Part shown: in pieces, positions 2,849-45,221 of the stretch
How positions within the stretch are numbered: the first letter of the stretch is position 1
Layout of the letters: every line of letters begins with the position of its first letter
DNA from: Eledone cirrhosa
Lineage: Eukaryota
Length of the DNA: 64,000 nucleotides
NCBI GenBank assembly: GCA_964016885.1
Contig: OZ024750.1
Span: forward strand, 25,854,001-25,918,000
Direction of reading: 5' to 3'
Made by a program: the position numbers and the translations under genes
The notes under the pieces: generated by a model
Seen by the model: only the letters and a program-made list of their open reading frames with translations
Database searches by the model: none
Told to the model about the DNA's origin: nothing

Positions 2849-2983
2849 ATTGCCTGGTAGGACGGTTTGGTGTTAAGTGTGAAGGAGTATGCCATTGTTT
2901 CGACAACATTAACTGTGACCATCGAAATGGAAGTTGTTCAGATGGATGTGCTGCAGGTTATGTTGGTGACACTTGCCAAGAAG
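2849..2983 (+). CDS. EGF-like exon 1: DCLVGRFGVKCEGVCHCFDNINCDHRNGSCSDGCAAGYVGDTCQE
   Basis: 135 nt, tttcag|AT...GAAG|gtatat, phase 1-1, 8 Cys, no stop. Confidence 0.85.
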
Positions 2984-3204
2984 GTATATCATAAACTTGT
3001 TACGTATTTACTATAATTACTACACACACACACACACACACACACACACACACACACACACATATACACACACACGTACACACTCACACATATTCACACA
3101 TATATATGTATGTGTTTCTGTGTGTATGTGTGTGTTTGTGTGTGTGTGCATATGTTTGTGTGTGTGGAAATATGATGTTTAATATAGAAATCGCTTCTAC
3201 AGGA

Positions 3205-3766
3205 ATTAGTAGCCGTACAGTGTTCAGCAACCATGGTTGCCATTTTGTTCAACACTGACAAAGGAACGATGAACTAGATTCTAGCTCATTAGCTGTCATC
3301 AGCACTATATACCTTCCTGTCAGTTGATTGAACGTTTGAAAGTATATACTTTGCTGATGCATATTAACGGCTGAGCAGCCTAATTTGCATATCGAGTGAG
3401 TACATATCTATATGTGTGCATGTATGTACGAATATACATACTACTGTACGTCTGTATACATACATGTATGTACGTATACATACTTATATTTAAGTATCAG
3501 CCGTACTAAGAATGAGAAATGAAATTTCATTTTTTCCATTTATCGTTTTCGGTACGCCCGGCCGACTAACTCACTCGAAATGTAAATTAGGCTGCTCAGT
3601 CGTTAATATGCATAAGGAAAGTATATACTTTCAAACGGTCAATCAACTGACAGGAAAGTATACGGTGCTGATGACAGCCAATAATTTAGAAACTAGTTCA
3701 TCGTTCCTTTGTCAGTGTTGAACAAAATGGCAACGATGGTTGCCGAACACTGTACAGCTAATAATT
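3205..3766. mobile_element. Inverted-repeat PLE-type element with hammerhead motif (3662-3704 +, mirror ~3266-3307 -); present in each large unit, with relatives at ~24095-24735 and ~41180-41560
   Basis: Arms 3205-3401 / 3569-3766; ACGGTG-CTGATGA-...-GAAA-CTAG-TT-CATCGT. Confidence 0.75.
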
Positions 3767-4169
3767 AGGGCTGTTTGTTCACAAACAAACCGTGCATTAT
3801 AATAAATGTTCGGTAAACCCATACGTACATATATATATATATATATGTGCATGTATGTATATATATTCGTAGAGGCGCATGGATGAGTTATATGGGAAAC
3901 AGCTGCAACACAGGTATTTCCTAATGATGCTAAGTATTTACAATATATATATATATATATATATATATATATATATATATATATATATATATATATATAT
4001 ATATAGAGAGAGAGAGAGAGAGAGTAAGAAAATGCGAAGTAGTTTCAGATATATTATCCATTTATTGAACGTACGGTAGAACGGAATGTAAATTATAGTA
4101 TGAAACGTAGTAATTAGGCAAACAATTAGTTAATATCTTCTTCTATCATATGAATCAAAACAAAACAAA

Positions 4170-4645
4170 AAGTTCTTCATCCTCAGTGTATACTGATTAA
4201 TGTTCAGAGCGATCCTTAGCATTCTCGTGTAGCGCACATCCACTATCTGAGTAAGTTTCTTGGTCAGTGCCCCAGTCTCAGACCCATACAGTAGCACAGA
4301 CGCCACTACAGCAACGAAGAGACTGATCTTCAGGTCTTTACGAAGGTCCGACTTCCACACCGAGCTCAAACTGTGGCACGCCGCCCAGGCTTTGCTATTC
4401 CACTCTACCACATCACCTTCTGTATTCCCAATTTGCTCCCAGATACAGGAAGTCTTCAACCAATTCTAGCGGCTCCCCCCCCTACATTAGTAATCTTCTC
4501 TGGCTTCTTAATATTCTCTACCATATACTTCATCTTAATCTCATTCATTCAAAGCCCCATACTCATCGACACAGTCTCCACCGCCTGCATCAAATCCTAT
4601 GCCTCCTTCACTGTGTTTTTCACTGGAACTATGTCATCGACAAAT
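4170..4645 (-). mobile_element. Older RTE RT/thumb fragment; copies ~10678-11155 and ~17285-17760
   Basis: SKAWAACHSLSSVWKSDLRKDLKI.LFVAVVASVLLYGSET matches the 32923 ORF; frameshifted. Confidence 0.9.
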
Positions 4646-5352
4646 TAGTTATGTAGATTTCTAGCCAGTATAGAGAAGGTTAATGTGCTCAAGGCATATA
4701 AGTTGTTAGACTAGCGAACCATGCGATTAAATGTAATGAGAGATAGCTTAACAATCGTATAATAAGCAGAGGAAAAACCGTTTTTAAAATACTGGAGAGA
4801 ATAACAAAGATTTATGAATACATGTATATATATTTAATGGCTGACAAGTATGGCAGCGAAAAAAATTTATAACAGCCATTTTGTGTGGCTGCTATAACGT
4901 CCTTTCACTTCCAACCTTTTAATATCAATATTCCACATTTAAAGAAGGTTTTTCACTTCGGTGATATAATTTAATTCATGAATTAATATGTTATGAAGAA
5001 TTTTTTTTTGTAGGCTCTGATGATAATAGAAATTTTTATTGGAATAATATCGATTTATATTCGATATCCCAACATGTATGTCCATCCTTACTGTGCAATA
5101 TTTGAAAAACCTTGTCAGCCATTAAATATATACATATATTTATAAATCTTTGTTATTCTCTCCAGCATTGTCAATACGATATATATATATATATATATAT
5201 ATATATATATATATATATATATATATATATATATATATATATATATATATATATATATATATATATATATATGTATATATATATATACATATATATTTCG
5301 TTTCTGAATTTGTTTAGCAAGTTTCTTTATCTGAAAACGTTTGTTGAAACCG

Positions 5353-42490: not shown

Positions 42491-42669
42491 GGATATCATA
42501 AACATGTTACATAATTACTATAATTACTATATACACACACACACATATATATATATGTGTATGCGTGTGTTTGTGTGTGTTTGTCTGTGTGGGGGGTGCG
42601 GGTTTGTATGTGCATGAGTTTGTGTGTGTAAATATGATGTTTAATATAGAAATCTTATATATATTTCAG

Positions 42670-42801
42670 AATGCCCGGTAGGAAAGTTTGGTGTTAATTG
42701 TAAAGGAAAATGCCATTGTAACGACAACATTAACTGTGAAGGGCTTTATGGAAGATGTTCAGATGGATGTACTGCAGGTTATACTGGTGACAATTGCCAA
42801 G
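42670..42801 (+). CDS. EGF-like exon 14 (last): ECPVGKFGVNCKGKCHCNDNINCEGLYGRCSDGCTAGYTGDNCQ
   Basis: 132 nt, AG/GT intact. Confidence 0.88.
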
Positions 42802-43949
42802 GTACATTATAAACTTGTTACATAATTACTATAATTACTATATACACACACGTATTTACTACACGCGTATTTACTACACACACACACACAGACACACACA
42901 CACACATACACACACACACACACACACACACATATACACACATGCACACACTCACACACACACAAACTCACTCATATATATGTATATTTTTGCGTGTGTA
43001 TGTGAGTGTGTGTGTGTGTGTGCATGTGTTTGTGTGTTTGATGTTTAATATAGAAATCGCTTCTACTGGACTAGAATAGTTTCAGCCAAAGAAATCATCA
43101 GGAAACGGCTTTTCTGATGATTACGTTTGAATGAAATAGTCCTAATAGTTGTAAATATATATATATATATACATTTATTTAGGTTTGTTGGTTCACCACT
43201 GGATAGAACTAGTCTTTCCGTATGATCAACCTCGATGTAATATTATGGTGAGCACTCGACGTAATGCAACTCAACTGTCTTCGTTTGTGTAGTTGGTGGT
43301 GCGAGTACGGAGTTAATTATTATAGAATAACAGGAGGCTGGGCTGGTGTAATTCATTGAAATGTTTATTATACTATGACCATTTCAATGACAGGGTTCAG
43401 TATGAATCCGGTGACATCATCAGGTATTCAGAATATAACAAAGGAATATAATAGACATGAGGACGACCGAACATTCAGCAGCTTCTACCTCGGTCGACCG
43501 CCCCCAATTGTTTCTATACAGATGAGAGACGTGTATTTACGCTTAAACAATGAATCAATGTGTTAGAATTAATAATTTATGTCCGATGTTAGTACGTTAG
43601 CATAGCAAATTGCATTACTAATGATTTAGAATAGTGATACTTTTACTATTATGAGTGTGAATTGCCGCTGTTGAAAGATGTAGTGAACAATTAAGTGATT
43701 ATAATAGACTTAAACATGCTTAAGTTCAATTATATCATATCATATATATAAACGCAAGCCTCTCCGAGATATTACCATAACAAGCACGTTAGAGGTGTAA
43801 TATCTTAGACGGTTAACGTGTTTCTACATCCTCCAATGCATATAGTCGTAAATATACACAGATACATAGGATAGGTGTACATGCACACATGGTAATACGA
43901 GGTACGTAATTTAGTTAGTACCAGTCATAAGACACAACTCCGTATTCAC

Positions 43950-45008
43950 ACGCCGTAGTGCATTTTGATAGAATTCTTTACATTTCCGGAAATATTCGTT
44001 GTCCGACCATATCTTAAAGAAGGGGAAAATTGTGAATTTTCCCTTCCCGCATGATGCGAAGTGTTCACTGCATGTGGTGTTTCTGACAGAGGGATCTCCA
44101 ATTTATTTTTTATGGACCCGAACCCTATCATGTAGACCCGTTCTCAAATGTAGTATTCTTCACGTTGTGGGCAAGTCACACAATAAATTAAGGTTTTTGT
44201 TTTGCAATTCACGCTTGCCTTAAATTTGAAAATGTCATTGTTTCAAGAGGAGATTTACCCTCTCTCTTCAATGAATAAACAAGTTCCGTATCACGGGTTC
44301 CCGCATTTCTTAACTTGCATTGATTCATTGTCAGAGGTAAATTTCGCCTTAATAAACAGTATTTTTAAAGTTAGGTGCTTGGCGTCTACTATATAGTATT
44401 TGTGAGTCTTTTATGAGTGCTTTCATTTTGGAGGACTGCTTGAGAATCGGGAGATATTGTTTAGCGTCTTTCACGATGTTGAAGTTCCATGGATTGTAAG
44501 TGACGATAAAAGGGATAACTGCTTTTTCCCTTTTATTTTGTAGGTTTAAGGAGCTCTTTTAGTTCATATTATCTTTTTTCCTATAGTGTAGTTTTGTTAC
44601 TATGGCGCAAATGCGTTTTGTCATATTAAAGGGAATGTTCCTTTTGGTATGTGAGTGGTGTGCTGACAGGAAATTCAAGTACTGGTGTGTGTCTGTTCGT
44701 TTGTAAAATAGGTCTGTTTTTATATTTTCCCCTTCTTTAATGATAGTGATATCCCAAAACGGTCGTTCCTTTTGTTCCCTTTTGTCTTGCTTCTTGAAGC
44801 CTGTTTATGATGAAATGGAATCTTTGGAGGTCTCCTTGGCTTCTATTAAAGAAGATGAAGCAGTCGTCTAGGTGACATTTCCAGTTGTTATTAATGTAGG
44901 TGGCAAAGTCGTGACTGAAAGCTTCTTGCAGCTGGGAATATAATTTTACCTCTAGGTGACCCAAGACGAGTGTTACATATGTTGGGGCTACTTTGGTGCC
45001 CATGGGTG
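43950..45008 (-). mobile_element. Degenerate Penelope-like element, probably Neptune-type
   Basis: MGTKVAPTY..L.LG.LE, W..LDDCFI RT motifs; YKRTDTHQYL.F.S.H; Cys linker KCGNP..GTC; RVRVHK..SEHFASC endonuclease end. Confidence 0.8.
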
Positions 45009-45130
45009 TTTCTTTTGTGTATGTATGTATATATATATTCCTGCGATTGTCTGTTTTTTCTTTTTTGTTTTCTGTTATTCCGAACTATATATATATATAT
45101 ATATATATATAATATTTTACCTTTGAACAG

Positions 45131-45221
45131 AAATACCCAGACTACATTCCGCTTATGTCGTGATGATTTTGTTGGTCCCACTTCTGTTGCTTGGAAGTGT
45201 GAGTGCAGTGATCATTTACAG
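45131..45221 (+). CDS. Transmembrane exon: EIPRLHSAYVVMILLVPLLLLGSVSAVIIY(R/S)
   Basis: ttttacctttgaacag| acceptor and |gtatgt donor; phase-1 entry matches the EGF exons; ~22-residue hydrophobic run; phase-2 exit. Confidence 0.85.

What the first reader, a model, noticed from the sequence alone, without database searches (positions are those of the whole stretch)
2849..45221. Hidden accordion-like receptor: 14 interchangeable phase-1 EGF exons plus a TM exon
Seen: 14 intact 132/135-nt exons, all phase 1-1 with 8 Cys and in-frame-only indels, then an in-phase TM exon. None of these appears in its true frame in the ORF track. Known: this repeat type builds MEGF10/Draper/CED-1 and SREC ectodomains, and symmetric exons can be skipped or duplicated without frameshift. 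Inference: a lineage-specific receptor with variable ectodomain length, changing genomically by copy number and perhaps by combinatorial skipping, since the donors are weak (GTATAT/GTACAT). Recognition or immune function is a hypothesis only.
Basis: partly seen in the sequence, partly recalled or inferred. Interest (0 to 1): 0.85.

Follow-up and report, generated by a model that had tools for sequence, protein, structure and literature searches.

The report
Octopod EGF receptors with fast-evolving helices
These exons are the middle of the first of 20 tandem genes, likely of an octopus-type animal, predicted to encode cell-surface proteins with a variable number of EGF repeats, and their membrane-spanning exon has changed amino acids about 4.5 times faster than silent sites, which likely reflects an arms race with pathogens at the cell membrane.

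Summary
In detail: 14 intact phase 1-1, 8-Cys EGF exons and an in-phase TM exon. Spliced in silico the model is 782 aa without a stop. It is gene 1 of a 1.5-Mb array of 20 signal...TM units, with a second cluster on contig C2. Intact EGF exons number 2-15 in the 14 genes read. No EMI, F-lectin or phosphatase domain and no NPxY/YxxL were found, so it is not a Draper/MEGF10 member. It resembles the snail SP-EGF-TM cluster genes linked to schistosome resistance and shares its exon module with mollusc FTP-EGF-TM-PTP genes. The unexpected result is positive selection centred on the membrane: TM exon dN/dS 4.5 (20 paralogs, p about 1e-12; silent rate equals intron rate), 5.1 in 11 C2 paralogs, against 1.9 for EGF exons, while the helix stays hydrophobic. 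The 'weak donor' argument fails a control, no RNA evidence was available, and function is inferred.

The parts
2849..2983 (+). EGF exon, 135 nt (copy in 6.5-kb unit). Three more exons of the gene lie upstream of the window: signal-peptide exon G000:C10:25845735-25845798, a truncated first-type EGF exon from 25849095, and an intact EGF exon 25849283-25849417
   Evidence: upstream exons
9379..9513 (+). EGF exon, identical to 2849
15944..16078 (+). EGF exon, identical to 2849
22855..22989 (+). EGF exon, identical to 2849
26728..26862 (+). EGF exon, 135 nt (one codon lost, one gained)
27037..27171 (+). EGF exon, 135 nt
28771..28905 (+). EGF exon, 135 nt
29084..29215 (+). EGF exon, 132 nt
29393..29527 (+). 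EGF exon, 135 nt
30084..30218 (+). EGF exon, identical to 29393
35483..35614 (+). EGF exon, 132 nt
35794..35925 (+). EGF exon, 132 nt
36101..36235 (+). EGF exon, 135 nt
42356..42490 (+). EGF-like exon with GG donor and 7 Cys; an in-frame internal GT after 117 nt would give a 6-Cys stalk exon (inferred)
42670..42801 (+). EGF exon, 132 nt
45131..45221 (+). Stalk + transmembrane exon, phase 1-2, under strong positive selection among paralogs
55688..55693 (+). Predicted 6-nt micro-exon, phase 2-2, donor GTCAGT; cleanly deleted in 3 paralogs
56941..57145 (+). Cytoplasmic exon, phase 2: basic start, then (S/K)GKD tetrapeptide repeats; stop TAG at 57113-57115; donor GTAAGT at 57146

Best explanation
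The window holds most of gene 1 of a 20-gene tandem array predicted to encode type-I membrane proteins (signal peptide, a rod of 2-15 EGF modules, one helix, a low-complexity charged tail) that likely act as cell-surface pathogen-interaction receptors or decoys in an evolutionary arms race. Shown: symmetric phase-1 exons are duplicated and lost within genes, whole genes are duplicated, and amino-acid change outpaces silent change at part of the EGF surface (omega 1.9 overall) and most strongly in the stalk, TM helix and first tail residues (omega 4.5-6.9). Inferred: the family arose from the mollusc FTP-EGF-TM-PTP type by loss of the lectin and phosphatase parts. Rod length would set reach and avidity. 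With no signalling motif of its own, the protein would act by binding, tethering or pairing with a partner. An antagonist or protease acting at or in the membrane (as Vpu does on the tetherin helix) would drive the helix to change while it stays hydrophobic.
For: 20 signal and 20 TM exons alternate strictly on C10. The spliced model is 782 aa with no stop. 31 of 31 parsed TM exons, in six length classes (88-109 nt), keep frame and have no stop; 1 charged residue in total in 31 helix cores against about 1.15 per copy in a rough neutral simulation. TM omega 4.5 (n=20, p 1e-12), 4.5-5.8 over three trees and two models, 3.4 for the last 22 codons, 4.85 in 13 gap-free copies; 5.1 in 11 C2 copies. 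Tree dS 0.92 against 0.96 for flanking introns, dN 4.15. Pairwise differences 0.45/0.27/0.21 by codon position against 0.09 in introns. EGF exons: omega 1.93, 42% of sites at 3.4. Closest proteins are Octopus FTP-EGF-TM-PTP, with the same 135-nt phase-1 exon inside FTP...PTP intervals of this genome. Snail SP-EGF-TM cluster genes map to schistosome-resistance regions (PMC13712769 sections 20 and 32; PMC12297450 passages). TM selection by an antagonist has a precedent (PMC2633611 abstract).
Against: No transcript, tissue or protein evidence for any member; all splice junctions are predicted. Selection covers 86% of helix codons with no significant helical face (p 0.08-0.12 on C10, 0.78 on C2), which one antagonist interface does not obviously explain. 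Positive selection also fits gamete or cell-identity recognition. The repeat tree is unresolved and the TM exon shows no pairwise similarity to the Octopus RPTP helix, so origin from RPTP rests on the EGF exons alone. Gene 1 has a deletion in its first EGF exon, and 17 of 102 EGF-like exons read are not intact.
Confidence: 0.5

Rival explanations
1. The TM helix is a paralog-specific pairing code. After each duplication, selection changes the helix and juxtamembrane residues so that paralogs sort into distinct cis-complexes, giving cells or individuals a combinatorial identity (self/non-self or neuronal), with the EGF rod as spacer or trans-binder.
For: Selection acts on nearly every helix position while Tyr8 and Pro16 stay in 19 of 20 copies. 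Tails are swapped wholesale: (S/K)GKD repeats of 13-180 aa in 15 genes, Asp/Asn-rich tails of 60-78 aa in 4 genes. Coleoids build recognition repertoires by whole-gene tandem arrays (protocadherins; PMC9068888 passages).
Against: No conserved polar or GxxxG-like motif in the column counts; no significant face bias; no expression data; many paralogs carry broken exons.
Confidence: 0.2
2. The genes encode gamete or reproductive-tract surface proteins diversifying under sexual selection or conflict, with repeat number tuning binding.
For: A conserved signal exon (tree dS 0.07), a fast mature region and repeat-number change are typical of reproductive proteins (general knowledge, recalled); omega values.
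Against: More than 30 diverging paralogs within one genome fit a repertoire better than species-level matching; the closest described clusters are tied to parasite resistance.
Confidence: 0.12
3. The family is functional but gene 1 itself is a decaying copy: its first EGF exon is truncated, its array is swollen by recent unstable duplications and retroelement insertions, and it may no longer splice productively.
For: Deletion in the first-type exon; four half-exon remnants; 0.9-1.2% diverged 6.5-kb units; an RT-bearing element inside an intron.
Against: Signal, 15 EGF, TM and tail exons are intact and in frame. The first-type exon is absent or has a dead splice site in 9 other genes of 14 read, and in gene 1 an in-frame GTAAGT donor lies at +60. 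Gene 1's TM exon differs from each of 12 equal-length paralogs by 15.5-21.5 replacement against 0.5-6.5 silent changes.
Confidence: 0.15
4. One reading: diversity comes mainly from combinatorial skipping of weak-donor exons in one accordion gene.
For: All 14 exons are phase 1-1, so skipping keeps frame; 14 of 14 donors lack G at +5.
Against: The same donor type occurs in 5 of 5 homologous exons read in FTP...PTP intervals. Many of the exons are identical or nearly so, so skipping would mainly change length. Most sequence diversity lies between paralogs.
Confidence: 0.1

Closest known systems
[quoted passage not shown]
   Same: Signal peptide + MEGF/SREC-type EGF ectodomain + one TM + small tail without a domain; tandem cluster with copy-number change; relatives with lectin and phosphatase domains in the same genome.
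   Different: Cephalopod; orthology not tested. Here the FTP and PTP hits lie outside the clusters, more than 1 Mb away or on other contigs. Tails are (S/K)GKD or Asp/Asn repeats. Positive selection on the helix is not reported there ('positive selection' has 0 occurrences in the main text of PMC13712769; supplements not read).
Mollusc FTP(F5/8C)-EGF-TM-PTP receptor phosphatases (Octopus P0002, P0004, P0006, P0013, P0016)
   Same: Best database hits (61-70% identity over the repeat); same 135-nt phase 1-1 exon with similar acceptor and donor.
   Different: No PF22633 or PF00102 hit in either cluster; different signal and tail; TM not alignable.
CED-1 / Draper / MEGF10 and SCARF1 (SREC-I)
   Same: Tandem 8-Cys EGF-like repeats and one TM; the profile hits the SCARF1 structure 8HNA at E 5e-4.
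   Different: No EMI domain, no NPxY, no YxxL; 60-aa charged low-complexity tail; many paralogs rather than one conserved gene.
Tetherin/BST2 (analogy only; PMC2633611 abstract)
   Same: Positive selection in TM and adjacent cytoplasmic codons.
   Different: Unrelated protein; single gene compared between species, with a known antagonist. Here the comparison is among paralogs and no antagonist is known.

Membership tests
CED-1/Draper/MEGF10 | Tandem atypical 8-Cys EGF repeats + single TM | tested here: met
CED-1/Draper/MEGF10 | N-terminal EMI domain (feature recalled) | tested here: not met
   PF07546 gives 1 hit among 25 candidates, on C1, none in the clusters (a lower bound); no extra variable exon between signal and first EGF exon in gene 19
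CED-1/Draper/MEGF10 | Cytoplasmic NPxY and YxxL motifs (recalled) | tested here: not met
   none in the gene-1 tail
SCARF1/SREC (class F scavenger receptors) | EGF-repeat ectodomain related to SCARF1 | tested here: met
   profile hit to 8hna_B, E 5.3e-4; weak
SCARF1/SREC (class F scavenger receptors) | Long Ser/Pro-rich cytoplasmic tail (recalled) | tested here: not met
   60-aa Lys/Gly/Ser/Asp tail without Pro
SCARF1/SREC (class F scavenger receptors) | Scavenger ligand binding | not testable with these tools
   needs binding assays
Mollusc FTP-EGF-TM-PTP receptor phosphatases | Same EGF exon module | tested here: met
Mollusc FTP-EGF-TM-PTP receptor phosphatases | F-lectin/F5-8C domain | tested here: not met
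   5 PF22633 hits among 45 candidates, all at C2:230-262 Mb; tblastn of 9 homologs on 264 kb gave EGF hits only
Mollusc FTP-EGF-TM-PTP receptor phosphatases | Cytoplasmic PTP domains | tested here: not met
   72 PF00102 hits among 113 candidates, none in C10:25.8-27.4 Mb or C2:310-315 Mb
Biomphalaria subgroup 1A scavenger-class-F-like cluster genes | SP + EGF ectodomain + TM + small tail without a domain | tested here: met
Biomphalaria subgroup 1A scavenger-class-F-like cluster genes | Tandem cluster with copy-number change | tested here: met
   among paralogs only; not between individuals
Biomphalaria subgroup 1A scavenger-class-F-like cluster genes | InterPro 'Tie2 ligand-binding' signature; orthology or synteny with the snail locus | not tested
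   no InterPro scan or snail sequences were compared
Biomphalaria subgroup 1A scavenger-class-F-like cluster genes | Association with parasite resistance | not testable with these tools
   needs population or infection data

The most novel reading that the evidence does not exclude
An octopod-specific repertoire of more than 30 surface proteins in which the transmembrane helix itself, not the ectodomain, is the main diversified recognition element: an intramembrane barcode that pairs with partners or evades membrane-embedded antagonists, mounted on an EGF rod of variable length and on swappable charged tails.
Probability: 0.2. Interest if true: 0.85.

Novelty: new variant of a known kind. Interest (0 to 1): 0.62.

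Why it matters
Clusters of SP-EGF-TM genes are leading candidates for parasite recognition in snails, but how they work is open, and attention has gone to the ectodomain. This array gives a cephalopod counterpart with a sharp, testable signal: the helix and its flanks change 4-5 times faster than neutral in two separate clusters while staying hydrophobic. TM helices are usually among the most conserved parts of receptor families (general knowledge). If confirmed, recognition or conflict is taking place in the membrane, and helix-swap experiments become the direct test.

Tried and rejected
RNA evidence: no RNA holder listed. The 3 runs laid on 42000-48000 (one sample) are contigs that cover introns, show no listed joint between exon ends and so behave like DNA; the TM-exon bin was almost without cover at 90% likeness, which is not used as evidence. 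A proximal tail exon at 45388 (short acidic peptide, then stop) was considered and set aside: its AG is lost in 2 copies and deleted in 2 more of 17, and no divergence peak marks it. An acceptor at 56953 was rejected for 56941, which is kept in 15 of 15 C10 tails. Read-through of the 55688 exon was rejected for a 6-nt micro-exon: two copies carry an in-frame stop inside a consensus donor, and three lack exactly those 6 nt. AlphaFold of one exon failed (pLDDT 42), so no fold search was run. Searches for full-length family members found none: first-type exon 1 candidate, signal-exon frame 16 candidates, none scored; weak evidence. The tail gave 6 low-complexity matches only. Helical-face test not significant. 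Repeat tree unresolved. Branch-by-branch counts of changes were not obtained; tree-free pairwise counts stand in. Assembly stutter for the 6.5-kb units is unlikely, as they differ at 49-66 of about 5,450 sites. Earlier findings: none in 3 look-ups. Albertin 2015 was not held.
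Full report
OBSERVATION. The window is G000:C10:25854001-25918000 of a 3.0-Gb assembly. It is AT-rich and full of microsatellites. The closest proteins are from Octopus, so I infer an octopod. Fifteen EGF-exon copies follow one acceptor motif. 14 of 15 are AG..GT, phase 1-1, stop-free and have 8 Cys (10 of 135 nt, 4 of 132 nt); 11 have donor GTATAT and 3 GTACAT. The 15th (42356) has 7 Cys and a GG donor. The TM exon is 45131-45221, phase 1-2. 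Four exons are identical and lie in 6.5-6.9-kb tandem units; the three complete units differ by 0.9-1.2%, which points to recent real duplication.

THE WHOLE GENE. Upstream of the window lie a 64-nt signal-peptide exon (C10:25845735-25845798, donor GTAAGA), a first-type EGF exon cut by a deletion (from 25849095), and a further intact EGF exon (25849283-25849417). Downstream, stacking paralogs showed a divergence peak at 56950-57150. It is a phase-2 exon (56941-57145) with a basic start and (S/K)GKD repeats; the acceptor is kept in 15 of 15 C10 copies found. A conserved acceptor at 55688 with a donor 6 nt later predicts a micro-exon. Signal + 15 EGF + TM + micro-exon + tail give 782 aa with no internal stop and a 60-aa tail. 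The model without the micro-exon has 120 Cys, 16 NxS/T sites and no NPxY or YxxL/I. All junctions are predicted.

THE CLUSTER. The TM exon has 35 matches among 35 candidates: 20 on C10 (25.9-27.3 Mb), 14 on C2 (310-315 Mb) and 1 on C1149. The signal exon has 20 matches on C10 and 20 on C2 among 40 scored of 53 candidates. On C10, signal and TM exons alternate strictly (19 units on +, 1 on -), and this gene is the first. I read 14 of the 20 C10 genes from signal to TM, plus one C2 gene: 85 of 102 EGF-like exons are intact, and intact counts per C10 gene are 15, 5, 11, 6, 3, 3, 4, 3, 3, 2, 4, 12, 5, 7. Tails are 13-180 aa in the 15 genes with the GKD exon. In genes 17-20 the micro-exon reads on into an Asp/Asn-rich tail of 60-78 aa, and the GKD exon is absent from the fully held spacers of genes 18 and 19. 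No PTP, F-lectin or EMI hit falls in either cluster (lower bounds).

SELECTION. 31 of the 35 TM matches were parsed as distinct exons (one lacks its acceptor, one is truncated, one was split between two loci and added later, and one C2 copy was dropped by the script's duplicate filter). 31 of 31 have lengths of 88-109 nt, all 1 mod 3, and no stop; best 19-residue hydropathy is at least 2.49, with 1 charged residue in all helix cores. Yet they diverge fast. On one topology the TM exon has 3.13 substitutions per site against 0.96 for 618 flanking intron columns. A codon model gives omega 4.53 for 20 C10 copies (2dL 50, p 1e-12), 4.5-5.8 across trees and models, and 3.37 for the last 22 codons (p 4e-7). 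It gives 4.85 in 13 gap-free copies and 5.09 in 11 C2 copies (p 1e-8). Tree dS is 0.92, equal to the intron rate, and dN is 4.15, which argues against local hypermutation or import of older exons. Model-free pairwise differences are 0.45, 0.27 and 0.21 at codon positions 1-3, against 0.09 in introns. The first 13 tail codons have omega 6.9 (n=15, p 5e-4). 69 distinct intact EGF exons have omega 1.93, with 42% of sites at 3.4 and 32% at 0.08. Signal exons (tree dS 0.07, dN 0.21) and first-type EGF exons (omega 1.4) do not differ significantly from 1. Caveats: these are my own M0/M1a/M2a code, with branch lengths scaled from nucleotide trees, and gene conversion among EGF exons can inflate site tests. 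The TM result holds on its own tree and without a tree.

A POSSIBLE STALK EXON. A late EGF-like exon has a GG (once CG) donor in 13 genes read; 3 carry a stop. In the 10 stop-free copies the GT after nucleotide 117 is invariant while the base before it varies (G, T, A). Splicing at +117 would keep frame and drop the last Cys, whose partner is already lost in 9 of 10. I infer a donor shift that turned the last module into a variable stalk. It is untested, and in gene 1 a full exon (42670) still follows.

THE WEAK-DONOR ARGUMENT. Five EGF exons read inside two FTP...PTP intervals on C2 have the same 135-nt phase-1 form and donors GTATTT or GTAATT. Lack of G at +5 is therefore likely an inherited trait of the module, not evidence of evolved skipping. 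Skipping stays possible and untested.

MECHANISM. Shown: birth-and-death of genes, rod-length change by symmetric exons, tail replacement, and diversifying selection strongest at the membrane. Inferred: surface expression, origin from the FTP-EGF-TM-PTP type, and a pathogen-interaction role as receptor, tether or decoy without its own signalling motif (0.5). Rivals are a TM pairing code for cell or self identity (0.2), gamete recognition (0.12), decay of gene 1 alone (0.15) and skipping as the main source of diversity (0.1). They are not all exclusive. Against the simple antagonist picture, 86% of helix codons fall in the selected class and no helical face stands out.

COMPARISON. PMC13712769 (sections 20 and 32 read, plus passages) describes snail LG5R genes with signal peptide, MEGF/SREC-like ectodomain, one TM and a small tail (subgroup 1A), beside lectin- and PTP-bearing relatives, in a schistosome-resistance region with copy-number change. 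PMC12297450 (passages) reports 10 of 23 SudRes1 genes with MEGF domains. PMC7494358 (passages) describes PTC2, where synonymous divergence exceeds nonsynonymous, unlike here. PMC2633611 (abstract) gives the tetherin precedent. PMC9068888 (passages) lists coleoid gene arrays and has 0 occurrences of 'EGF'. Supplements were not read. Nine searches aimed at such a cluster or at TM-centred selection listed no paper whose title or abstract start describes it in a cephalopod; the library lacks most subscription papers. The defining features of CED-1/Draper/MEGF10 and SCARF1 are recalled; the EMI, motif and tail features were tested and not met.

VERDICT. A real feature, larger than reported. The architecture is of a known mollusc kind; the cephalopod array, the swapped low-complexity tails and above all the strong positive selection on the TM exon make it a new variant. 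Interest 0.62.

Noticed in passing
G000:C2:313.09-314.01 Mb: At least 43 EGF-exon hits (of 150 scored) lie between one signal exon (313089078) and a tail exon (314010263) with no TM match listed between them: possibly one 0.9-Mb gene with a very long rod and a divergent or missing TM exon.
   Followed up: no
G000:C2:314.53-314.62 Mb: 13 copies of the first-type EGF exon at about 6-15-kb spacing within one gene unit; on C10 this exon is single or absent.
   Followed up: partly
C2 paralogs (L116, L121, L126, L128): The tail appears split differently: a 19-nt exon, a roughly 100-nt intron, then GKD-type repeats running for hundreds of codons (open frames up to 435 aa).
   Followed up: partly
window 805-1658: 854-nt palindrome, arms of 427 nt, 99% complementary, no spacer; no copy was listed in the other 6.5-kb units. 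Recent fold-back insertion or assembly artefact. A second hairpin lies at 1890-2178.
   Followed up: partly
window 32920-35097 (+); 49569-52082: 725-aa open frame with RVT_1 (E 8e-34) inside the EGF array; a second copy, 97% identical, with its 5' part inverted, lies after the TM exon.
   Followed up: partly
window 31283-32430 (-); 38442-39249 (+): Two 64%-identical degenerate ORF regions that look like Penelope/GIY-YIG retroelement remains (label recalled; no Pfam hit).
   Followed up: no
window 2614, 9134, 15713, 22620: 3' half-exon remnants that keep their donor; a TTCAG at their start would give a 39-nt in-frame two-Cys mini-exon. Similar remnants occur in genes 2, 11, 12 and 13.
   Followed up: no
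window about 43057, 30520, 36530 and in each 6.5-kb unit: A truncated copy of the acceptor region after each EGF block; at 43057 it is followed in phase 1 by a short frame and a stop. Remnant of a deleted unit, or a possible soluble-isoform end.
   Followed up: no
window 46302-48041: Three tandem copies of a roughly 540-nt element (96-97% identical) in the intron after the TM exon.
   Followed up: no
L092 (G000:C1149): An unplaced 93-kb contig carries a divergent 109-nt TM exon and tail-exon matches.
   Followed up: no
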